From Potamolinea sp. (GTDB taxonomy: Bacteria; Cyanobacteriota; Cyanobacteriia; Cyanobacteriales; Coleofasciculaceae): a stretch of DNA of 21,554 nucleotides. A program made the translations under genes and the position numbers. The notes under the pieces are model-generated. The model did not search any database and was not told the DNA's origin. It saw only the letters and a list, made by a program, of their open reading frames with translations. The first letter of the stretch is position 1; the number at the start of each line of letters is the position of its first letter. The stretch spans positions 67,511 to 89,064 of the forward strand of contig JAYFMV010000019.1 of assembly GCA_042408245.1 (NCBI GenBank), written 5' to 3'. Positions 1,922 through 16,251 of the stretch are shown one piece after another.

Positions 1922-3070
1922 TCAGCAGAATTTGACATAAGAGAGTAGCCTCGTTGAGCACTTAACAAGCTGAACTTTAGATACAGAAAATTGACCAATC
2001 CTGTGCCAGTTGATGTCATAAACAGAAACATTTTTTGTCTTAGCTGAATTGGTATAACCACCAATCCAGCCAGTATAAGACTGCCCCGCCTTTGAGGCGA
2101 TAGCGAAGCGCTGCTGCAAGCAGATCACCTTGTCTCCAGAACGCAACCCAAAAGGTGTAACGGTTCCACCCTTGCGTTTGCGGTGTTCTAGATGAGTGGG
2201 AGAGCCTTTAACTGGATTCTCGAAGTGCAATTGACGACGATACAACTGTGGTCTAGCTATGATGACAAACGGACATTTGGTTATCTCGATTTCCCCTAGC
2301 CAATGACCCCCACGAGCATTGTTACTTATCCAGTTTTGCCACTTAATGAAGTGGCTAGCAGCTAGAGTAAGACCATCGTGCGAGTGTGTTTCAGGAGTGG
2401 GATTAGCTTTATTGGTTTTATCTTTCGCCAACCCCAACCACTGCCGAAGATTGGAAGTTTGCCAACCTAATTGAGTGCTAGTTGGTTTAATTTCAGATAA
2501 CCACTCCACCATGATTTTCTGCCCAACCATTGCAGGTGAAAAGCTTTTACTACCCCGTGCTTCTATCCGCTCATAAATAATCTGAGATATGGGATAGAGC
2601 TTAAGTAGTTCTTTGACTACTCTTAACTCCATCTGTTTGTTCGCTCGGATACTGGGAACAAGCTTTCTTTGTCTGCGGTTGTCGAATCGCTTCTGACGAT
2701 GACAGCGTTGATTGTAGGGGAGTTTGCGATTAATTCTCCGTCCACGTCTGGCTCTTCGTAGTATCCGTCTTGTTGTCATCTTTTTGGTGACAGATTTAAA
2801 CGGTAACTGAAGATGAGCTTTGAATAGAGTTGCTTTTGTACTCTGTAGGCCAATGCCAGTAAAAAGTTTTCCTGGGTCGATACCAAGGGCAATGTCTTGG
2901 GTTTCTCTACCAGATGGCTCAGACAATAAACGGACTCCGTAAACCTCCAAATCATTGCGAACAGCAAGGGCTTTTCCTAATTTGATCCAGCGTCTAGCGC
3001 GACTGCTTTTGGTCGGCATGGCTGGAGTTCCGTCAGGATTTTGAACTGAAACTCTAATTGTGTTTGACAT
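1922..3070 (-). CDS. isrB: IsrB-like RNA-guided nickase homolog (IscB family lacking the HNH insertion), RuvC-like nuclease
   Basis: N-terminal PLMP-type motif (RVSVQNPDGTPAMPTKSSRARRWIKLGKALAV). RuvC-I motif ALGIDPG. Arginine-rich RRXRR bridge helix (RRILRRARRGRRINRKLPYNQRCHRQKRFDNRRQRK). RuvC-II motif around IIYERIEARG. RuvC-III-like HSHDGLTLAASH. There is no Cys/His HNH module between RuvC-II and RuvC-III. Length is about 380 aa. The ORF track extends the gene to a GTG at 3109; the ATG at 3070 (MSNTIRVSV...) is the more likely start. Confidence 0.7.
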   Translation of the reverse strand: MSNTIRVSVQNPDGTPAMPTKSSRARRWIKLGKALAVRNDLEVYGVRLLSEPSGRETQDIALGIDPGKLFTGIGLQSTKATLFKAHLQLPFKSVTKKMTTRRILRRARRGRRINRKLPYNQRCHRQKRFDNRRQRKLVPSIRANKQMELRVVKELLKLYPISQIIYERIEARGSKSFSPAMVGQKIMVEWLSEIKPTSTQLGWQTSNLRQWLGLAKDKTNKANPTPETHSHDGLTLAASHFIKWQNWISNNARGGHWLGEIEITKCPFVIIARPQLYRRQLHFENPVKGSPTHLEHRKRKGGTVTPFGLRSGDKVICLQQRFAIASKAGQSYTGWIGGYTNSAKTKNVSVYDINWHRIGQFSVSKVQLVKCSTRLLSYVKFC

Positions 3071-3300
3071 GGAGATAATCCTGTAAAACAGTTGTATGTT
3101 CCTTCCCACAATTCAGCTAGGATGTCCTTTCTACAAGCACTCTTAAACAAAGAGTTTGAACATAGTCCAATGAGAGGGAAACGAGCGGAAGTTCGTGCCT
3201 AACTAAATCTCATGTGGTAGACAAGAGTTACCCTTGAAAGTTGTTTCTTTCAAGCCCCTCCCTCAACGAAGTAGGGAGGGGTTCTTGACCTCTCAGCCTT
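3071..3300 (-). ncRNA. Candidate omega-RNA of the IsrB element, inferred by position only
   Basis: In IscB/IsrB systems the omega-RNA lies immediately upstream of the nuclease ORF and overlaps its 5' end, with the guide at the far upstream end. This 180-230 nt non-coding stretch carries two consecutive perfect hairpins on the isrB strand: CTTGAAAG-ttgttt-CTTTCAAG at 3233-3254 and CCCCTCCCT-caacgaagt-AGGGAGGGG at 3255-3281. No covariance model could be run. Confidence 0.3.
3233..3281. repeat. Two tandem perfect stem-loops (8 bp and 9 bp stems) at the isrB-proximal end; candidate left-end TnpA-recognition or omega-RNA structure
   Basis: cttgaaag ttgttt ctttcaag at 3233-3254. cccctccct caacgaagt agggagggg at 3255-3281. 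Confidence 0.6.
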
Positions 3301-6229: not shown

Positions 6230-7684
6230 TCACCCCACCTTTTTAGAGGTGGGGGTGTCTATGCTAAGAAAGGGACTGTTGAGGTTCCACAAATCACAAA
6301 GACAAGCCCAGCTTCTAGGCAAGCGTCCAGAATTTTTACTGGGGCGCTTCTCGTAGTCCTTTCGGCTATCGAGTTTAAGCCAACCTCTCGCGGCGATATT
6401 GTAAGACCCGTTCAGGTCGCAGTTGTAACGCTTCCCGCTAGAGAAAGTAGCTAATGCGTAATTCTTATTGTCGCGTTTCACTTTGCCCGACCCATCATAA
6501 GCAAGCTTTGAGGTATAGGCAGCAATCACGGTGATTGTTTTGCCGCCTAACTCAGCCCATTTACGTTGGGTCAGATCAACGATTAGGCTTTTGAGCCAAC
6601 CATGAAACCGTTGCTTCAGGTTAGATCGTTTCCTGCCTCCCTTTGGCTTCCAGCCTTTGAGATCCTCAAACACAATTGCGTCTGCACGCTCTGTCTGAGC
6701 AATCTGGGTAATGCGTTTAGAAACGGTATGCCCCATCTGTTGATTGATATTGCGACACTTGCGATAGGTGTTTTTGCAGAATCCTAACCCTAGTTTTCCG
6801 CCTTTCCCCATCGTCTTCTTAGCCCGTATCGAAACTGATTTCAGTCGCTTGTCGCGGCGGTCTATGTCTCTTCCAGGATGAATAAATTCACGATGGATTA
6901 CAGTACCGTCACGGCTCACCACTGAAACAGTAGCAGTCGTATTAATTCCTAAATCAACCGCCACAACCACGCCAGCCCCTTTCACCTTCTCAGGGTGGCA
7001 CTCAAAGGGAACCGACAAATGGCAAAATTTGTCGTTCACGATCAGCGAGGGTGATTTGATTTGATTGGTCGAAATCTTATGCCGTTCACGCCACGAAGCG
7101 ATAGGCATGGCGCTCCAAATCCAATCGGTTCCGGTAAACACTTTAATTTCGACTTGCTCGAATCCATGCAGCTTGAAACATTGCCCTTTGTACAGAGCAG
7201 GATAACAACCCGCACTACTATTGAGAATTGGGGGTTTTGCATCTCTACGGTTCCGACTTTGCCCAGACTGCCAATCCCGGTATCGAGTCATGTAGCTACT
7301 CACCTGTCCTGCTGCAAACATGATTGCAGCGCGGCGTAAATAGCTAGGGAACTTGTGAAACGCTCGGTTAATTTGAGGGTATTTCGGATGAGGATTCTTT
7401 GCGGTTCCATGTACCAATCTTTCGACGGCAGGAACGATATTATCACCGCTTAGATTCCCCAAATCAACCCAGTGGGTACAGATCACCGTCACCAAGAACC
7501 GACATAAACGGCGGTATTCCTGCACAGTGTTAAGCAGATATTGTCTCTGCTCACTGCTTGGGGCAATGCGCCACTTGTCGGTTCTGATAGCGCGAGCGGT
7601 AGCGACGTAGGAGCGTCTGGTTTTAGGTGCTGTTTTTTGTCCCATAGTATTTATAGTGTAGCGCATAGAGTAAAACCATGACAA
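6230..7684 (-). CDS. tnpB: TnpB-family RuvC-like protein (IS605 OrfB). The zinc-finger cysteines are absent. The start codon is uncertain: TTG at 7684, or ATG at 7666 or 7645.
   Basis: RuvC-I motif VVAVDLGINTTATV. RuvC-II motif AIVFEDLKG. YTS motif (AAYTSKLAY). RuvC-III motif CDLNGSYNIAARG. Where the two CxxC pairs are expected, the sequence reads LAYDGSG...FSSGKRYNCD. Divergently coupled to tnpA. Confidence 0.7.
   Translation of the reverse strand: MSWFYSMRYTINTMGQKTAPKTRRSYVATARAIRTDKWRIAPSSEQRQYLLNTVQEYRRLCRFLVTVICTHWVDLGNLSGDNIVPAVERLVHGTAKNPHPKYPQINRAFHKFPSYLRRAAIMFAAGQVSSYMTRYRDWQSGQSRNRRDAKPPILNSSAGCYPALYKGQCFKLHGFEQVEIKVFTGTDWIWSAMPIASWRERHKISTNQIKSPSLIVNDKFCHLSVPFECHPEKVKGAGVVVAVDLGINTTATVSVVSRDGTVIHREFIHPGRDIDRRDKRLKSVSIRAKKTMGKGGKLGLGFCKNTYRKCRNINQQMGHTVSKRITQIAQTERADAIVFEDLKGWKPKGGRKRSNLKQRFHGWLKSLIVDLTQRKWAELGGKTITVIAAYTSKLAYDGSGKVKRDNKNYALATFSSGKRYNCDLNGSYNIAARGWLKLDSRKDYEKRPSKNSGRLPRSWACLCDLWNLNSPFLSIDTPTSKKVG
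6231..6257. repeat. Subterminal hairpin at the tnpB-proximal end (right end) of the IS605-type element
   Basis: caCCCCACCT ttttag AGGTGGGGgtg. It overlaps the last codons of tnpB (...TPTSKKVG*) and is the same motif as at 8115-8138. Confidence 0.65.
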
Positions 7685-8097
7685 GAAGCTTAAGAGCTTT
7701 TGCTCACAGCTATTGCAGTATTCAGATTCATATGGTGTTTGTTACAAAGTATCGTCACCCCGTCTTGACTGAGCAGATAGAGTCTGACATCATCCAACTG
7801 TGTCGAGGGATCTGCGAAAAAAACCGTTCTTACCTCGTAGAAGCAAAAGCAGATTTAGAGATGAAAGACCATATCCATTTGTTAATAGACTTTGCGCCTG
7901 ATGTCTCTGTGTCGAAGCTGGCTAACACAATGAAGACCGTTACCAGTCGTGAGATTCGGAAGCGTTTTGCAACTGAACTGAAACCTTATTACTGGAAACC
8001 TGTTTTTTGGAAGCGCGGCTATTGTGCTGTTTCTGGGGGTGGCGCAACGCTTGAGGTTATTAAGTCCTATATCCAATCTCAGGGTAAGGACGACTAG
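7678..8097 (+). CDS. tnpA: IS200/IS605-family Y1 (HUH) transposase TnpA
   Basis: 139 aa. IHMVFVTKYRHPVL. HUH motif HIHLLI. C-terminal catalytic tyrosine context WKRGYCAVSGGG...IKSYIQSQ. The size and motif order match IS200 TnpA. Confidence 0.85.
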   Translation: MTRSLRAFAHSYCSIQIHMVFVTKYRHPVLTEQIESDIIQLCRGICEKNRSYLVEAKADLEMKDHIHLLIDFAPDVSVSKLANTMKTVTSREIRKRFATELKPYYWKPVFWKRGYCAVSGGGATLEVIKSYIQSQGKDD

Positions 8098-8496: not shown

Positions 8497-8509
8497 AGTG
8501 ACTACTCCT

Positions 8510-8536
8510 GCACTAAATGCTTAGGCATTATAGTGC
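8510..8536. repeat. Near-perfect palindrome centred on the stop codon of the solo tnpB, 14 nt after the psbZ stop
   Basis: GCACTAAATGC ttag GCATTaTAGTGC. Candidate right-end or omega-RNA 3' hairpin of the solo tnpB element, or the psbZ 3' stem-loop, or both. Confidence 0.5.
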
Positions 8537-9786
8537 AGGCTTCCCAGATCGCTATTGGATATTGCTGCCCTACGCCACTTATCTAGGCTCATCACCCCCG
8601 ACAGCCCGACATGAGTGCCAATTTCTTTCCCCCAAAGTCCTTGGGTACTCAGTTGCTCATAACCTCGGTTACAGATTTCCTGTGCCGAGACTACATCTCT
8701 ATCAGCTTCGTAACCACATTCTGGGCAACTATGCCATCGCTCTTTCAGTTCTTTCCTGACTTCAATGCGGCAATTTGGACAAGTCTGAGACGTTCCTTTG
8801 TGGTTGACCTCGGCAACATATACACCTCGCTGTTTACCCACATAAGAAAGGATAGTTCTGAACTGTCCAAAGGCTGCATCAATGGTGTGCTTACCTAAAA
8901 AGCCCTTTGCCATGATTCGGAAATCGATATCTTCCACGAAGATGGTATCAGCCATGTCACACAATTTGTGAGCCAATTTGAACTGATAGTCTTTACGTTT
9001 GAAGGCAATGTGGTTATGTTGACGCTCTACCTTGAGCCTAACTTTCTCATAGTTTTTAGAGCGCTTCTTCTTTTTCGACAGTCTGCGTTGTAGCACTTTC
9101 AGCCGACGATGCTCTGTGGCAAAGAATTTACGCCCTGGCTCAATGAATCCTTCACTGGTCGCTAGATAATTATTCAACCCAACATCCACCCCAATCAAGT
9201 GTCCGTGAGGCATGGGAGCGGGGATAGAGAGATCAGAATGAATGCTGATTACAGCAAACCAGCCCATTGCTTTTTTGAGTATCCTGACTTGTTTGACTAC
9301 AAACCCTTCTGGGATTGGTCGATGCAAGTTGATTTGAACTTTCCCCAGTTTGGGTAACTTGATTTGCCACCCTGTAATTGGATTAGTGGAAAACTGAGGA
9401 AAAAGTATCGACTTCCAGAGTCCATACTTCTTGAATCTCGGAAATCCATAACCCCTTTTCTGGAAAAAGTCCCAGGAATCATGCAATCTTCTAATCGTTG
9501 TTTGCAACACCTGAGAAGGCACTGCTGCTAGTCGCGGAAAGTCCTTTTTAGCTTTGGGGAGATTGTTTTGCTGCTGATGGTATCCAGGAAAAGGATAGTC
9601 AGCACTCATGATGTACTCTGACTCCAAACTACAGCTATCTATTGGACACTTCCTAGAAGCAATCCAGTCCTTTAGTTCCCTGAGTGCATAGTTATACGCA
9701 TGACGACAAGTTTCAAGCCATTCGTTCAGTAACTCGACTTGCTGCTCATCGGGTATTAGGCGGTAGGTGTAGTTGAGAGTTATCAT
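8521..9786 (-). CDS. tnpB: Canonical TnpB (IS605 OrfB / IS1341-like) RNA-guided nuclease family protein. Solo, with no tnpA.
   Basis: N-terminus YRLIPDEQQVELLNEWLETCRHAYNYAL. RuvC-I motif LIGVDVGLNNYLATS. RuvC-II motif TIFVEDIDF. Intact zinc finger TSQTCPNC...WHSCPECG. RuvC-III motif ADRDVVSAQEICNRG. Confidence 0.85.
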   Translation of the reverse strand: MITLNYTYRLIPDEQQVELLNEWLETCRHAYNYALRELKDWIASRKCPIDSCSLESEYIMSADYPFPGYHQQQNNLPKAKKDFPRLAAVPSQVLQTTIRRLHDSWDFFQKRGYGFPRFKKYGLWKSILFPQFSTNPITGWQIKLPKLGKVQINLHRPIPEGFVVKQVRILKKAMGWFAVISIHSDLSIPAPMPHGHLIGVDVGLNNYLATSEGFIEPGRKFFATEHRRLKVLQRRLSKKKKRSKNYEKVRLKVERQHNHIAFKRKDYQFKLAHKLCDMADTIFVEDIDFRIMAKGFLGKHTIDAAFGQFRTILSYVGKQRGVYVAEVNHKGTSQTCPNCRIEVRKELKERWHSCPECGYEADRDVVSAQEICNRGYEQLSTQGLWGKEIGTHVGLSGVMSLDKWRRAAISNSDLGSLHYNA

Positions 9787-13351: not shown

Positions 13352-13591
13352 TTAGTTATTGGTTCTTGATTGTGTAGGCTATATTTTGCCAAAATCATGA
13401 TTTAACTCAGAGCATCCCCATCTGATTATAGCTAAAATTAGTGTAAAAAAATAGACACAAAATAGCCCATCTCTGAAAAGACGTATTTGCGTTCAATAAA
13501 TGAATTCATTCTCAATAATCTTGAGAATACCCCCCTTTTATTGAGAAAATTCTAGTTATACAAAAATTTACGCGGTTTTTACAAAAGTTTG

Positions 13592-13629
13592 CAAAAAACA
13601 GGACAGGGGGGAACCCTGTCCTGCAAAAA
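13592..13629 (-). terminator. Intrinsic terminator for the minus-strand small ORF
   Basis: 10-bp GC-rich stem CAGGACAGGG / CCCTGTCCTG with a GGGAA loop. On the minus strand the stem is followed immediately by TTTTTTG. Confidence 0.45.
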
Positions 13630-13728
13630 CAACTAATAAGATCATGTCCAACTGCATCGGTATTATCAGCTCAGACAGCAGGAGCCTCACCCCATAATCG
13701 CTTCGATTTGGTGTGAGAGGAATGCGAG

Positions 13729-13899
13729 TCAAAGGAAGGGGTTCAATACCCCTTTCTTTGACATTTTCTTGGCTAGAGTTCGCAGGTAATCTCTAAACAC
13801 GTCATTCTGGGTTCTGGCGGTCATCTCGCAGTATTGTCGCCACACTTCTTTTTCTTCCGGGGTGAGGCGAAAGTTAACATTTTCGGTAAGTTTTGCCAT
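13729..13899 (-). CDS. Small ribbon-helix-helix (CopG/Arc-like) DNA-binding protein, 56 aa; below the ORF-track length cutoff
   Basis: Translates as MAKLTENVNFRLTPEEKEVWRQYCEMTARTQNDVFRDYLRTLAKKMSKKGVLNPFL. The beta-strand (VNFRLT) plus two helices match the RHH signature. ATG at 13899, stop at 13729-13731. The start lies 35 nt from the divergent tnpB-like start. The terminator sits about 100 nt downstream. Confidence 0.5.
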   Translation of the reverse strand: MAKLTENVNFRLTPEEKEVWRQYCEMTARTQNDVFRDYLRTLAKKMSKKGVLNPFL

Positions 13900-13933
13900 T
13901 ACTTTGTATTTGATATTCCATTACAATAGTGAC

Positions 13934-15298
13934 ATGAAATACACTTACCAGTACAAGGCGCTTCCCACAACCGAACAGAAGCTAGAGTTGAATCTCTGGC
14001 GGCGAACCTGCCAGTACTGGTATAATCGCCAACTCGGAGATCGCGTTATGTGGTGGGACTCAAACCGCACACCTGTTGACGCTTGCCCACTGGTGGCGAC
14101 GCTGCCAGAACTTCGTGACCAACCCAACTACTACAGCCAGAAAAAGTATCTACCAGGACTCAAGAAAGAACCTGTATTAGTGGAGTGGTCTGGGGAAAAG
14201 TTAGACTTATCAAGAGTTCCAGCAAACACGTTACAGGAAGTCTGTAAACGAGTTGACTTGGCCTTCCAACGATTTACCGCAGGTGATACAAGCGGAAACC
14301 GAAGCGGCAGACCCCGCTTCAAGTCACAATCTCGCTATCGTTCATTTGTGATTGAAGGCGCCTCTTTGGATCTATACTCTTGCTCAATTGGCGGCAAGTT
14401 CCTGTACATTAAGGTGCCAAAGATTGGTGTCGTCAAAATTCGTTCTCATCGGCATTTGCCTGATGGTGCAGTTCTCAAGCAATTGCAGTTCATCAAGAAC
14501 AATGATGGCTGGTTCGTTAATCTTCGGTTGGAAGATCCAACTGTTCCCATTTGCACCAATGACATCATTCCCACTTGGGAAAACTCGCTGGGCATGGACG
14601 CTGTGCTGCATGAAGAAGATTACCTAGCAACCAGTGAGAATACCAAGCTTCCCTCCCTGAAGGTGTTGAGGAAAAGCCAGCACAAACTAACTCACGTTTC
14701 CTCAAAAAAGAACGCCCGAAAGCGCGGCTCTAAGGCACGTCGAAAGCTGGCGAAAAGAGAGGGCAAACTGCATCAAAAGATTGCCAGACATCGTAAAAAT
14801 TTCCACTACAAAACCGCCCATAAATTGTTGAGAACGGGCAAGAAAGTTTTCTTCCATGAAGACCTCAACCTAAAAGGTCTGTCAAGGCGCAACGCCCCCA
14901 AACAAGACGAAACTGGGGCATACATACCGAATGGACAGTCTGCCAAGTCGGGACTCAATATGAGTTGGTCTGATGCTGCCTTCGGTCAATTCTTTCAAAT
15001 CCTCGGTCACATAGCTGGAAAAGCTGGAGCCGTAGTGATACCGAAGAATCCCGCTTATACCTCCCAACTCCTTGCTTATCGAGATGAAGTGATCTTCATC
15101 GACTGTGGCATTCGCCAGTATTGGGATGAGCTAGAAAATCTCTGGGTTGATCGTGACGTTAATGCTGCGATCAATGTTCTGAGAGTGGGGCTGGACGTGT
15201 TCCCCACTATAAAACGCCGTAAAGGTGGAATAGTAATAGTCGGTTCTATCACTAAAGATACCTCCAAGGAAGTTCTACGCATTCTCCGGAGTGCTTGA
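13934..15298 (+). CDS. tnpB: TnpB-family RuvC-like protein (IS605 OrfB) with the zinc finger degenerated
   Basis: N-terminus MKYTYQYKALPTTEQKLELNLWRRTCQYWYNRQLGDR. RuvC-I motif SLGMDAVL. RuvC-II motif KVFFHEDLNLKG. YTSQ motif. RuvC-III motif DRDVNAAINVL. The CxxC...CxxC pairs are replaced by LAYRDE...FIDCGIRQ. The ORF-track start at 13862 is a GTG extension that overlaps the divergent RHH ORF; the ATG at 13934 is in frame and fits the family N-terminus. Confidence 0.75.
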   Translation: MKYTYQYKALPTTEQKLELNLWRRTCQYWYNRQLGDRVMWWDSNRTPVDACPLVATLPELRDQPNYYSQKKYLPGLKKEPVLVEWSGEKLDLSRVPANTLQEVCKRVDLAFQRFTAGDTSGNRSGRPRFKSQSRYRSFVIEGASLDLYSCSIGGKFLYIKVPKIGVVKIRSHRHLPDGAVLKQLQFIKNNDGWFVNLRLEDPTVPICTNDIIPTWENSLGMDAVLHEEDYLATSENTKLPSLKVLRKSQHKLTHVSSKKNARKRGSKARRKLAKREGKLHQKIARHRKNFHYKTAHKLLRTGKKVFFHEDLNLKGLSRRNAPKQDETGAYIPNGQSAKSGLNMSWSDAAFGQFFQILGHIAGKAGAVVIPKNPAYTSQLLAYRDEVIFIDCGIRQYWDELENLWVDRDVNAAINVLRVGLDVFPTIKRRKGGIVIVGSITKDTSKEVLRILRSA

Positions 15299-15302
15299 GA
15301 AG

Positions 15303-15335
15303 CCTACACCAACCTGATTACAGGTATGGTGTAGG
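15303..15335. repeat. Perfect 9-bp stem hairpin with a palindromic loop, 5 nt after the tnpB-like stop; candidate right-end or omega-RNA structure
   Basis: CCTACACCA acctgattacaggta TGGTGTAGG. The loop is itself palindromic (ACCTG/CAGGT). Confidence 0.5.
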
Positions 15336-15435
15336 AGCGTCACGAAAGGTAATTGGTAGTTAAGTTGTACTCATCAGCCATTACTTATTACCCATTACCC
15401 ACTCTTCAACAACGAAGCCAAAGGACTTAATATAA

Positions 15436-16251
15436 CTATTCTTTGCCTACCAGTTTAACCTTCTGTGCCAGACCAAACATTTGGAGGAACTGAATAGTCA
15501 TCCAAGTCATATCAATTTCCCACCATTTCATACCGTGACGAGCGGAATATTGGTAAGCGTGATGATTGTTGTGCCAGCCTTCACCGTAGGTAACCAAAGC
15601 CACCCACCAGCAGTTTTTTGAGCAGTCATTAGACTCAAAAGTACGATAGCCAAATTTGTGAGTAGCACTGTTAACAAACCAAGTGCAGTGAAACACAAAA
15701 ATTAGCCGAACAAAAATTCCCCAAACAACAAAAGACCAGCCGCCTAAAGCATAAAGCAACAGTCCCAAGACAGTTTGGAGAGGAATAAAATATTTATCTA
15801 AAAACTGATAGACCGGATCTTCAGCAATGTCTTTCGTAAAGCGAGGAACTTCGTCTTTGGCCGGAGTCTGATAAAACATCCAGCCCATGTGACTCCACCA
15901 AAAGCCCTTATTGGAGTCATGAGGATCGAGGCCGGAGTCGGAGTGTAAATGATGGATGCGGTGTAGCCCAACCCAATCAATTACTCCTCCTTGACAGGAA
16001 AGGGTGCCACAGAAAACTAGGAAATATTCCAGCCACTTGGGGGTCTGAAAACTACGGTGAGTCACCAAGCGATGCCATCCCAAGGTGATACCCAAGCCAC
16101 CTGTTACCCAGTGGAGGAAAAGCGCTAAGCCCACTGCTGTCCAGCTAAAGTTGCCGGGGAGCAAAGCAAAAAGCGCTGCGATGTGAATTAGGGCCATGTA
16201 GATAATGATGACCCAATCCAAGCGGAGATTATTTGAGGTGGCAATTGTCAT
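15436..16251 (-). CDS. desC: Acyl-lipid delta-9 fatty-acid desaturase
   Basis: 271 aa with the three histidine boxes HRLVTHRSF, HRIHHLHSD and HNNHHAYQY. Four predicted transmembrane segments. Typical cyanobacterial DesC layout. Confidence 0.9.
   Translation of the reverse strand: MTIATSNNLRLDWVIIIYMALIHIAALFALLPGNFSWTAVGLALFLHWVTGGLGITLGWHRLVTHRSFQTPKWLEYFLVFCGTLSCQGGVIDWVGLHRIHHLHSDSGLDPHDSNKGFWWSHMGWMFYQTPAKDEVPRFTKDIAEDPVYQFLDKYFIPLQTVLGLLLYALGGWSFVVWGIFVRLIFVFHCTWFVNSATHKFGYRTFESNDCSKNCWWVALVTYGEGWHNNHHAYQYSARHGMKWWEIDMTWMTIQFLQMFGLAQKVKLVGKE

What the first reader, a model, noticed from the sequence alone, without database searches (positions are those of the whole stretch)
13592..13940. 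Unannotated 56-aa ribbon-helix-helix gene divergently paired, 35 nt apart, with a zinc-finger-less tnpB-like gene
The ORF is below the 60-aa cutoff. It has a clean RHH signature (beta-strand VNFRLT, helix PEEKEVWRQYCEMTA, turn, helix VFRDYLRTL) and its own strong terminator downstream (10-bp GC stem plus T6). Its start codon overlaps the spurious GTG extension of the tnpB-like ORF, so the two genes share a compact divergent promoter region, the typical arrangement for an RHH autoregulator controlling its neighbour. An RHH repressor coupled to a TnpB-like nuclease is not a standard IS605 arrangement. It could be a regulated or domesticated RNA-guided module, or an addiction-like pair.
Basis: partly seen in the sequence, partly recalled or inferred. 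Interest (0 to 1): 0.6.

Follow-up and report, generated by a model that had tools for sequence, protein, structure and literature searches.

The report
Arc-like repressor gene inside TnpB transposon

Summary
Window 13729-13899 (-) is a 56-aa protein-coding gene under strong purifying selection (dN/dS about 0.02-0.15). The predicted fold is ribbon-helix-helix (RHH). It lies 34 nt from the ATG (13934) of an intact TnpB that keeps the D-E-D catalytic residues and has lost its zinc finger.

In 17 of 19 cyanobacterial genome loci found with the RHH, a tnpB (some copies decayed) sits divergently at exactly the same 34-nt distance. This holds even where the TnpBs share only 35-42% identity.

The pair is not a domesticated module. 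It is the cargo of a discrete 1,678-bp IS200/IS605-type element (13666-15343) with covarying subterminal hairpins at both ends. Copies about 99% identical occur at unrelated sites in other genomes. In the window it is inserted between desC and proA, which are 164 nt apart in a syntenic relative.

The spacer carries an inverted repeat, TTGTA-N13-TACAA. Its right arm is a TACAAT -10 box 6 nt before the tnpB ATG.

The best reading is an Arc-like repressor of the transposon's divergent promoter. This was noted by Zedaveinyte et al. (2024) and shown experimentally by Moon et al. (bioRxiv, Sept 2026). Verdict: a new member of a known kind, of moderate-to-low interest.

The parts
13666..15343 (+). 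Whole mobile unit: a non-autonomous IS200/IS605-family element (1,678 bp) carrying arc (RHH) and tnpB
   Evidence: Homology to related loci starts sharply at TCAGCT (13666) and ends at ...GGAGCGTCAC (15343), and the flanks are unrelated. Copies about 99% identical sit at different sites in other genomes. A syntenic relative has desC and proA 164 nt apart with no element.
13666..13727 (+). Left end: 20-nt terminal segment, then imperfect hairpin A (13686-13717) with a bulged base, then the conserved GAGAGGAATGCG segment
   Evidence: Conserved in 23 distinct related sequences, with many compensatory changes in hairpin A. It folds as ssDNA with z = -6.55. The same left-end block is found in relatives with other RHH variants or no RHH.
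13728..13762 (+). Hairpin B: 14-bp stem and a 7-nt T-loop-like loop (TTCAATA), followed by ATTTTCTT. It overlaps the last 11 codons and the stop of the RHH gene.
   Evidence: Terminator-like on the + strand. Across 16 relatives there are 205 Watson-Crick pairs, 10 G.T wobbles on the + strand and 0 A.C pairs, plus compensatory changes.
13729..13899 (-). arc-like RHH gene, 56 aa. Beta-strand residues N7, N9 and R11 are predicted to face the DNA.
13900..13933 (.). 34-nt divergent control region. Inverted repeat TTGTA (13904-13908) / TACAA (13922-13926). TACAAT -10-like box at 13922-13927, 6 nt before the tnpB ATG.
   Evidence: The spacer length is invariant in all pairs. An inverted repeat is present in all 20 distinct spacers, with covarying arm extensions. 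TGTA and TACAAT are the invariant positions. The pattern occurs once in the window against 0.03 expected.
13934..15298 (+). tnpB, 454 aa. RuvC D222/E309/D408 are intact and the C4 zinc finger is lost.
   Evidence: NCBIfam guided_TnpB 158.7 bits; Pfam OrfB_IS605 and TNB; alignment to ISDra2 TnpB; clade alignment.
15194..15343 (+). Omega-RNA-like structured 3' region and right end. Closing helix GACGT (15194-15198) / GCGTC (15337-15341). Covarying hairpin 15279-15294 inside the coding region. Right-end hairpin 15303-15335, then AGCGTCAC.
   Evidence: RNAalifold on 9 clade-1 sequences gives compensatory pairs, for example GCATTC/GAGTGC to GTATTC/GAATAC to ACACTC/GGGTGT. The boundary is sharp, with unrelated flanks.
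13598..13624 (-). Intrinsic-terminator-like hairpin plus T6. It is NOT part of the element and lies in host flank.
   Evidence: It lies left of the element boundary and has no counterpart in related loci. Assigning it to desC is an inference.

Best explanation
The ORF encodes an Arc-like ribbon-helix-helix protein. It is carried, together with tnpB, inside a non-autonomous IS200/IS605-family insertion sequence (13666-15343).

Proposed mechanism:
- The protein dimerises through its N-terminal beta-strand.
- It binds the inverted repeat TTGTA-N13-TACAA in the 34-bp spacer, probably as two or more dimers.
- The right arm of the repeat is the TACAAT -10 box that sits 6 nt before the tnpB ATG, so tnpB is probably translated from a leaderless or near-leaderless mRNA.
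- Binding therefore shuts off tnpB transcription and probably the protein's own. This keeps the RNA-guided nuclease low while the element sits in the genome.
- TnpB itself looks functional (intact D-E-D, structured 3' omega-RNA-like region ending at the right end).
- The element would be mobilised by a Y1 TnpA supplied in trans.

Shown here: gene reality, RHH fold, obligate pairing and fixed spacing, element boundaries and mobility, operator-like repeat overlapping the -10 box.

Inferred: DNA binding, repression, leaderless start, source of TnpA.
For: Coding and fold. Family members reached at E 1e-13 to 1e-19 carry Pfam RHH_1 and 'CopG family' names.

Pairing:
- 17 of 19 genome loci plus metagenome loci have tnpB at exactly 34 nt. 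This spans two TnpB clades only 35-42% identical.
- More distant RHH relatives are also divergent from tnpB. TnpBs 67-83% identical carry other RHH subfamilies in the same position.

Element.

Operator and promoter.

TnpB integrity and omega-RNA-like structure.

Precedent:
- Moon et al. 2026 (10.64898/2026.09.24.754181) show by ChIP-seq and reporters that IS605 Arc binds oppositely oriented motifs over the divergent promoter and represses tnpB, including in arc+tnpB-only elements.
- Ziemann et al. 2023 (PMC9938897) show repressors divergent from cas12k in cyanobacteria, with both genes leaderless.
- The RHH profile aligns end to end with CAST Arc_1 (hhalign E 7e-5, probability 62%).
Against: - There are no binding or expression data for this protein.
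- The window protein does not reach any Pfam or NCBIfam RHH cut-off on its own. A profile search against PDB sequences finds no RHH. Foldseek E-values are not significant.
- The arc promoter could not be located. The TACAAN box on its strand is only 1-3 nt from the start codon, too close for a normal -10.
- The 18-bp centre-to-centre spacing of the repeat arms is unusual for a dimer-of-dimers RHH operator.
- No cognate TnpA was found. The TnpA in the window (7678-8097) belongs to an element with different end hairpins.
Confidence: 0.65

Rival explanations
1. Toxin-antitoxin-like or anti-nuclease pair. The RHH protein neutralises TnpB by protein-protein contact (and may also autoregulate), as proposed for archaeal RHH/MazE-TnpB.
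For: Altae-Tran et al. 2023 (PMC10691335) propose this for an archaeal clade. The top structural neighbours of the model are RHH antitoxins such as AtaR, TacA, CopA_SO and ParD. There are weak DUF6290 hits.
Against: - The genes are divergent, not an antitoxin-first operon.
- The protein is 56 aa with only about 8 residues after helix 2. That tail is constrained at the nucleotide level by hairpin B, where Leu and Ser interchange, so there is no toxin-binding extension.
- TnpB has a canonical rather than rearranged catalytic site.
- The unit is a mobile IS with 1-2 copies per genome.
Confidence: 0.1
2. Transposition accessory or architectural factor. The RHH binds the element to modulate excision or integration by a trans-acting TnpA, or to modulate omega-RNA biogenesis, rather than acting mainly as a promoter repressor.
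For: - The gene occupies the position that tnpA has in IS605-type relatives (L056, L083, L104).
- Its 3' end is physically interleaved with left-end hairpin B.
- Zedaveinyte et al. list regulation of transposition or RNA biogenesis as possibilities.
Against: - The only conserved repeat found lies in the promoter spacer. The TTGTA-N13-TACAA pattern occurs nowhere else in the window.
- RHH proteins bind dsDNA, whereas TnpA works on ssDNA hairpins.
- The left-end block is the same in relatives that lack an RHH.
Confidence: 0.1
3. The RHH has been co-opted as a host regulator that outlives the nuclease, with targets elsewhere in the genome.
For: Intact RHH ORFs persist next to decayed or deleted tnpB in L002-L009, L013, L020, L022, L023 and L026.
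Against: - A 168-nt gene is an eight-fold smaller mutational target than tnpB, so its survival is expected by chance.
- These copies still lie within the IS remnant and keep the same spacer.
- The window copy has an intact tnpB and intact ends.
Confidence: 0.07
4. Chance ORF: not a gene.
For: It is below common length cut-offs and was not called in the only public assembly of this locus.
Against: dN/dS is 0.02-0.15 with saturated synonymous sites. The length of 56 aa is conserved across genera. The protein family has 234 members, some annotated as CopG/RHH.
Confidence: 0.01

Closest known systems
Arc-like RHH repressors of IS605-family transposons (Zedaveinyte et al. 2024 Science / bioRxiv 10.1101/2023.11.20.567912; Moon, Zedaveinyte, Wiegand & Sternberg, bioRxiv 10.64898/2026.09.24.754181)
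   Same: - A small RHH protein encoded inside the IS and divergent from tnpB.
- An intergenic bidirectional control region with oppositely oriented motifs over promoter elements.
- arc+tnpB-only elements exist.
- The gene is often missed by annotation.
- N-x-N-x-(T/R) pattern of DNA-facing beta-strand residues.
   Different: - The host is a cyanobacterium rather than Clostridia.
- No tnpA in cis.
- A very short, length-invariant 34-nt spacer with the -10 box 6 nt from the tnpB ATG.
- The 3' end of the gene overlaps a covarying left-end hairpin.
- Sequence homology to their Arc clade was not tested here.
Arc_1 / Arc_2 / CvkR regulators divergent from cas12k in cyanobacterial type V-K CASTs (Ziemann et al. 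2023, PMC9938897)
   Same: - Cyanobacterial.
- A small RHH (53-72 aa) upstream of, and in reverse orientation to, a TnpB-derived effector.
- Leaderless geometry was shown there for cvkR and cas12k.
- The RHH profile aligns to Arc_1 over 45 columns (hhalign E 7e-5).
   Different: - Here the partner is a catalytically intact TnpB in an IS605-type element, not a nuclease-dead Cas12k in a Tn7-like CAST.
- No similarity to Arc_2.
- The hhalign probability is only 62%.
Archaeal RHH/MazE-TnpB modules (Altae-Tran et al. 2023, PMC10691335)
   Same: A small RHH gene is stably linked to a predicted-active TnpB.
   Different: Those are archaeal, co-directional (RHH upstream of tnpB), non-mobile, have a rearranged catalytic site and are interpreted as toxin-antitoxin systems. 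This one is bacterial, divergent, mobile and has a canonical D-E-D site.
Canonical IS200/IS605 elements (IS608, ISDra2) and TnpB-only IS1341-type derivatives
   Same: - Subterminal imperfect hairpins about 20 nt from the left end and 8-10 nt from the right end, with no terminal inverted repeats.
- tnpB with a structured 3' RNA region ending at the right end.
- Relatives at about 60% TnpB identity carry a divergent Y1 tnpA.
   Different: - tnpA is replaced by the RHH gene.
- An extra long hairpin B lies at the left end.
- TnpB lacks the zinc finger, a loss known in some TnpB branches (Altae-Tran 2023).

Membership tests
Ribbon-helix-helix (MetJ/Arc/CopG) superfamily | Beta-alpha-alpha topology of about 45 residues, with alternating polar and hydrophobic residues in the N-terminal strand | tested here: met
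   AF2 model: extended N-terminus, H14-26, H31-48. Strand N7-V8-N9-F10-R11-L12-T13.
Ribbon-helix-helix (MetJ/Arc/CopG) superfamily | Structural similarity to solved RHH proteins | tested here: met
Ribbon-helix-helix (MetJ/Arc/CopG) superfamily | Passes a curated RHH sequence model (Pfam RHH_1 or related) | tested here: inconclusive
   The window protein is below cut-off (NikA-like 15.8 and DUF6290 14.7 against 27). Profile-linked relatives (E 1e-13 to 1e-19) carry PF01402 and CopG names.
Ribbon-helix-helix (MetJ/Arc/CopG) superfamily | Dimerisation and sequence-specific dsDNA binding through the paired beta-strands | not testable with these tools
   Needs EMSA, ChIP or a structure.
IS605-family Arc (Moon et al. 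2026) | RHH gene lies within the boundaries of an IS605-family element and next to tnpB | tested here: met
   Element 13666-15343 encloses both genes. The pairing is conserved.
IS605-family Arc (Moon et al. 2026) | Oppositely oriented binding motifs overlapping promoter elements in the divergent spacer | tested here: met
   The inverted repeat TTGTA/TACAA is present in all 20 distinct spacers, and its right arm is the TACAAT box. This is sequence evidence only.
IS605-family Arc (Moon et al. 2026) | Sequence homology to the Arc clade (WP_094548610.1, WP_003367503.1) | not tested
IS605-family Arc (Moon et al. 2026) | Represses transcription from the tnpB promoter | not testable with these tools
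   Needs a reporter assay or RNA measurement.
IS200/IS605-family insertion sequence | Subterminal imperfect hairpins at both ends, no terminal inverted repeats, discrete boundaries | tested here: met
   The left-end and right-end hairpin feet are similar (AGCCTCAC...GTGAGAGG versus AGCCTACAC...GTGTAGGAG).
IS200/IS605-family insertion sequence | Evidence of mobility | tested here: met
   Copies 98.5-99.4% identical over about 1,570 bp have unrelated flanks in Microcoleus, Tychonema and Scytonema. The element is an insertion relative to a syntenic locus.
IS200/IS605-family insertion sequence | Y1 (HUH) TnpA transposase | tested here: not met
   There is none inside the element, so it is non-autonomous. 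Relatives at about 60% TnpB identity have a divergent Y1 tnpA. The window's TnpA (7678-8097) flanks different hairpins.
IS200/IS605-family insertion sequence | Insertion 3' of a fixed short target (TAM) without target duplication | tested here: inconclusive
   The flanks show no direct repeat. The -1 base is mostly T, and the TAM may lie within the conserved TCAG. No empty site close enough to align was found.
RNA-guided TnpB nuclease | RuvC D-E-D triad, WED/REC architecture, family model score | tested here: met
   guided_TnpB 158.7 bits against a cut-off of 100. D222, E309 and D408 are invariant and align to ISDra2 D191/E278/D361; the ISDra2 residue numbers are from memory.
RNA-guided TnpB nuclease | C4 zinc finger between RuvC-II and RuvC-III | tested here: not met
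   Lost in the window clade and kept in the sister clade. The loss is known in some TnpB branches, so this does not exclude membership.
RNA-guided TnpB nuclease | Omega-RNA encoded at the 3' end and reaching the right end | tested here: inconclusive
   A covarying structure is predicted at 15194-15343. There is no Rfam match and no transcript data.
TldR (nuclease-dead TnpB repressors) | Inactivated RuvC site; immobile; guide targets a host promoter | tested here: not met
   The triad is intact and the element is mobile.
Type II toxin-antitoxin (RHH antitoxin) | Antitoxin-toxin operon; antitoxin with a C-terminal toxin-binding region | tested here: not met
   The genes are divergent. Only about 8 residues follow helix 2.

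The most novel reading that the evidence does not exclude
[quoted passage not shown] What would be shared is the RHH lineage and a divergent, leaderless promoter layout. In addition, the interleaving of the arc 3' end with a tRNA-T-arm-like left-end hairpin, which is selected on the tnpB strand, may couple arc expression to transcriptional insulation or to TnpA access at the left end. Such a regulatory layer has not been described for IS605 Arc.
Probability: 0.2. Interest if true: 0.55.

Novelty: new member of a known kind. Interest (0 to 1): 0.33.

Why it matters
- It adds a well-delimited cyanobacterial lineage to the newly recognised class of Arc-regulated IS605 elements. The lineage comprises two TnpB clades, one without a zinc finger.
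- It gives precise element ends, a candidate operator and a probable leaderless tnpB promoter, all directly testable by EMSA and reporters.
- Compact TnpBs with a natural off-switch are of practical interest for genome-editing tools.
- The possible link to the Arc_1 regulators of Cas12k CASTs bears on how transposon regulators were inherited when TnpB became Cas12k.
- For annotation, it shows that a conserved regulator below 60 aa is systematically missed next to tnpB.

Tried and rejected
- Rfam at gathering threshold on the window, at E<=5 on 13500-15500, and on eight relatives gave nothing relevant. In particular there is no group I intron or known omega-RNA family.
- A profile search of the RHH alignment against PDB sequences gave only spurious hits.
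- Empty-site search: the exact-protein look-up of desC returned only the same genome (L029). The closest desC homologues are 84% identical or less, and the syntenic intergenic DNA is not alignable. The exact TAM and the ownership of the terminator therefore remain inferences.
- I asked whether the 638-aa neighbour of the RHH in L006 is a novel effector. It is an Hsp70-like host gene next to a tnpB remnant.
- I asked whether the window's own TnpA (7678-8097) could mobilise the element. Its element has CCCCACCT/AGGTGGGG hairpins unlike those of the RHH element, so this is unlikely.
- I considered the conserved left-end block as an omega-RNA on the RHH strand with its guide in the flank. This was rejected because the wobble pairs show hairpin B is selected on the tnpB strand, the block is shared by RHH-less relatives, and a conventional structured 3' region exists.
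- I could not place a credible -10/-35 pair for arc.
- There is no similarity to CAST Arc_2.
Full report
**1. The observation.**

- A 56-aa ORF on the minus strand, 13729-13899.
- A tnpB-like gene whose conserved start is the ATG at 13934. The listed ORF from GTG 13862 is a spurious extension across the small gene's start.
- A 34-nt spacer, 13900-13933.
- A G+C-rich hairpin followed by T6 on the minus strand at 13624-13598.

TnpB is confirmed by NCBIfam guided_TnpB (158.7 bits, cut-off 100) and by Pfam OrfB_IS605 and TNB. Aligned with ISDra2 TnpB, the RuvC aspartate, glutamate and aspartate are present. The four zinc-finger cysteines are replaced by L, R, D and E.

**2. The small ORF is a real gene.**

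- A search of 5.8 billion proteins gave 30 homologues at 72-95% identity. Nearly all are exactly 56 aa and all come from cyanobacteria.
- Nei-Gojobori estimates between nine orthologues give dN/dS of 0.02-0.15, with synonymous sites close to saturation.
- An AlphaFold2 model (pLDDT 77) shows an unpaired N-terminal segment followed by helices 14-26 and 31-48. This is what an RHH monomer should look like.
- The window protein does not reach any curated RHH threshold on its own.
- A profile that includes two sister subfamilies retrieves 234 proteins. Many of these carry Pfam RHH_1 and the NCBI name 'ribbon-helix-helix protein, CopG family'.
- The only public contig holding this DNA has no gene call at this position.

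**3. The pairing with tnpB is conserved.**

I scanned one genome per species with the RHH alignment. This returned 19 loci in Scytonema, Symploca, Caldora, Microcoleus, Microseira, Tychonema, Leptolyngbyaceae and others.
- In 17 of them a tnpB lies divergently with its start exactly 34 nt from the RHH start.
- These fall into two TnpB clades only 35-42% identical to each other, while the RHH stays 66-73% identical.
- Metagenome contigs show the same arrangement.
- More distant RHH relatives that pass RHH_1 weakly are also divergent from tnpB.

I then searched in the other direction with a TnpB alignment.
- TnpBs 67-83% identical to the window's often carry a different subfamily of the same RHH family in the same position. 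Others carry none.
- The clade at about 60% identity mostly lacks an RHH. In some cases it has a divergent Y1 tnpA in that position.

The RHH is therefore a recurrent accessory gene of this group of elements, and an exchangeable one. It occupies the tnpA slot of IS605-type elements.

**4. The pair is the cargo of a mobile element.**

- Similarity to every related locus begins at TCAGCT (13666) and ends at ...GTGTAGGAGCGTCAC (15343). The flanks are unrelated.
- The left end carries an imperfect hairpin (13686-13717) 20 nt from the terminus. It has a bulged base and abundant compensatory changes.
- The right end carries a hairpin (15303-15335) 8 nt from the terminus, or 10 nt in the sister clade.
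- The feet of the two hairpins resemble each other.
- The left end folds as single-stranded DNA with z = -6.55.

This is the geometry of IS200/IS605 ends. That comparison rests on my knowledge of IS608 and was not re-derived here.

- Copies 98.5-99.4% identical over about 1,570 bp sit at unrelated sites in different Microcoleus, Tychonema and Scytonema genomes.
- In a relative whose desC is 83% identical, the gene order metC-like, desC, proA, ribH and ycf9 is the same as in the window. There, desC and proA are 164 nt apart, against 2,084 nt here.

The unit is thus an insertion and not a domesticated host module.

It is oriented to terminate desC, and it would lie about 130 nt from the desC stop if the element were removed. 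That assignment is an inference, because the intergenic DNA of the relative is not alignable.

**5. The control region.**

- Twenty distinct versions of the spacer all contain an inverted repeat with a TGTA/TACA core. Its right arm is the box TACAAT.
- The arm extensions covary: TTGTAAC/GTTACAA, TGTACT/AGTACA and TGTAAA/TTTACA.
- In the twelve clade-1 spacers the invariant positions are T13900, TGTA (13905-13908) and TACAAT (13922-13927).
- The exact pattern TTGTA-N13-TACAA occurs once in the window, against 0.03 expected.
- TACAAT ends 6 nt before the tnpB ATG, and no Shine-Dalgarno sequence intervenes. This is the geometry of a leaderless mRNA.

In Anabaena, leaderless expression was shown for cas12k and its divergent repressor cvkR (PMC9938897). 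Here it is an inference.

I could not locate a satisfactory promoter for the RHH gene. The TACAAN box on its strand is only 1-3 nt from the start codon.

**6. Mechanism and literature.**

- Zedaveinyte et al. (10.1101/2023.11.20.567912) first reported Arc-like RHH ORFs in TnpB-bearing elements.
- Moon et al. (10.64898/2026.09.24.754181) show by ChIP-seq, reporters and mutagenesis that IS605-encoded Arc binds oppositely oriented motifs over the divergent promoter and represses tnpB. This includes elements that encode only arc and tnpB.
- Ziemann et al. found Arc_1 and Arc_2 RHH genes divergent from cas12k in cyanobacterial CASTs.
- The present family aligns end to end with Arc_1 (hhalign E 7e-5, probability 62%) but not with Arc_2.

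The best-supported reading is that this gene is an Arc-like repressor of the element's own promoter region.

The toxin-antitoxin reading proposed for archaeal RHH/MazE-TnpB (PMC10691335) fits poorly. The genes are divergent and the protein has no C-terminal extension. TnpB also has a canonical catalytic site, and the unit is mobile.

**7. TnpB and its RNA.**

- The window clade has lost the zinc finger, while the sister clade keeps CxxC...CxC. Such loss is known in some TnpB branches.
- The last 150 nt up to the right end (15194-15343) are predicted to form a closed multi-hairpin structure. It has compensatory changes even inside the coding region, as expected for an omega-RNA scaffold whose guide would be the right flank.
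- No Rfam family matches.

**8. An unexplained detail.**

The last 11 codons of the RHH gene overlap a 14-bp hairpin (13728-13762).
- It has compensatory changes, 10 G.T wobbles on the tnpB strand and none on the RHH strand.
- Its loop is always TTCRAYR closed by a G-C pair, like a tRNA T-loop.
- The loop purine toggles Leu and Ser in the protein tail, which suggests the constraint acts on the nucleic acid.
- On the plus strand it is followed by ATTTTCTT and scores as a terminator.

It may insulate the element from transcription reading in from outside. IS200 offers a precedent, which I cite from memory. This is not settled.

**9. Verdict.**

The regulatory interpretation is broadly right, but the arrangement is already known and the module is a transposon, not a domesticated or addiction system. 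This is a new member of a known kind. Some lineage-specific features deserve a test: the fixed 34-nt spacer, the probable leaderless tnpB, the zinc-finger-less TnpB, and the overlap with the left-end hairpin.

Noticed in passing
window 13728-13762 (+): A 14-bp hairpin with a T-loop-like loop (TTCRAYR) overlaps the C-terminal codons of the RHH gene. It covaries, has wobble pairs only on the tnpB strand, and is terminator-like on that strand. Its function is unknown.
   Followed up: partly
window 15194-15343 (+): A predicted omega-RNA-like structure at the 3' end of tnpB, with compensatory changes inside the coding region and a long-range closing helix GACGU/GCGUC. It matches no Rfam family.
   Followed up: partly
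window 6230-8097: A separate autonomous IS605-type element. It has a 484-aa TnpB-like gene (-) whose start overlaps a divergent Y1 tnpA (7678-8097, PF01797 123 bits). Its end hairpins are CCCCACCT/AGGTGGGG, unlike those of the RHH element.
   Followed up: partly
window 8498-9786 (-): A third TnpB (421 aa, zinc finger intact, 29% identical to the RHH-linked one). Its right-end hairpin GAAGCCTGCACTA...TAGTGCAGGAGTAGTCAC closely resembles that of the RHH element. A TAAGAT box lies 6 nt before its ATG. There is no RHH gene upstream, and about 790 nt up to ribH are unassigned.
   Followed up: partly
window 1922-3109 (-): A 395-aa protein with a strong RRXRR domain hit (PF14239, 145 bits), possibly an IscB/HNH-type OMEGA nuclease. 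The window is therefore dense in RNA-guided-nuclease genes.
   Followed up: no
window 13352-15435 versus L112 4317-4480: The synteny metC-like, desC, proA, ribH, ycf9 is conserved in a relative whose desC-proA spacer is 164 nt. The window has three IS insertions in this neighbourhood. The minus-strand terminator at 13598-13624 probably belonged to desC.
   Followed up: partly
L002-L009, L013, L020, L022, L023, L026: The RHH ORF stays intact next to a truncated, interrupted or deleted tnpB in about a third of distinct loci. In L006 only a tnpB remnant is left, beside an Hsp70-like host gene.
   Followed up: partly
L031, L037, L053, L098 (variant 2); L040, L041 (variant 3); L061, L106: Closely related TnpBs carry other RHH subfamilies in the same divergent position. 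Each has its own direct or inverted repeats next to a TATAAT/TACAAT box 6 nt before the tnpB ATG. This suggests swapping of repressor and operator.
   Followed up: partly
L030, L035, L039 (left end to tnpB distance 577-814 nt): Relatives with the same left-end block but no RHH ORF have several hundred extra non-coding bases between the left end and tnpB. No Rfam hit, and it is not a group I intron.
   Followed up: partly
window TnpB residues about 319-345 (14888-14968): An insertion of about 20 residues (RRNAPKQDETGAYIPNGQSAKSGLN) after RuvC-II is conserved in both RHH-linked TnpB clades. It is absent from the window's other TnpB and from ISDra2.
   Followed up: no
L112 4400-4480: Tandem heptamers (GGGCATG and TCATTCG repeats) fill the desC-proA spacer of the syntenic relative.
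   Followed up: no
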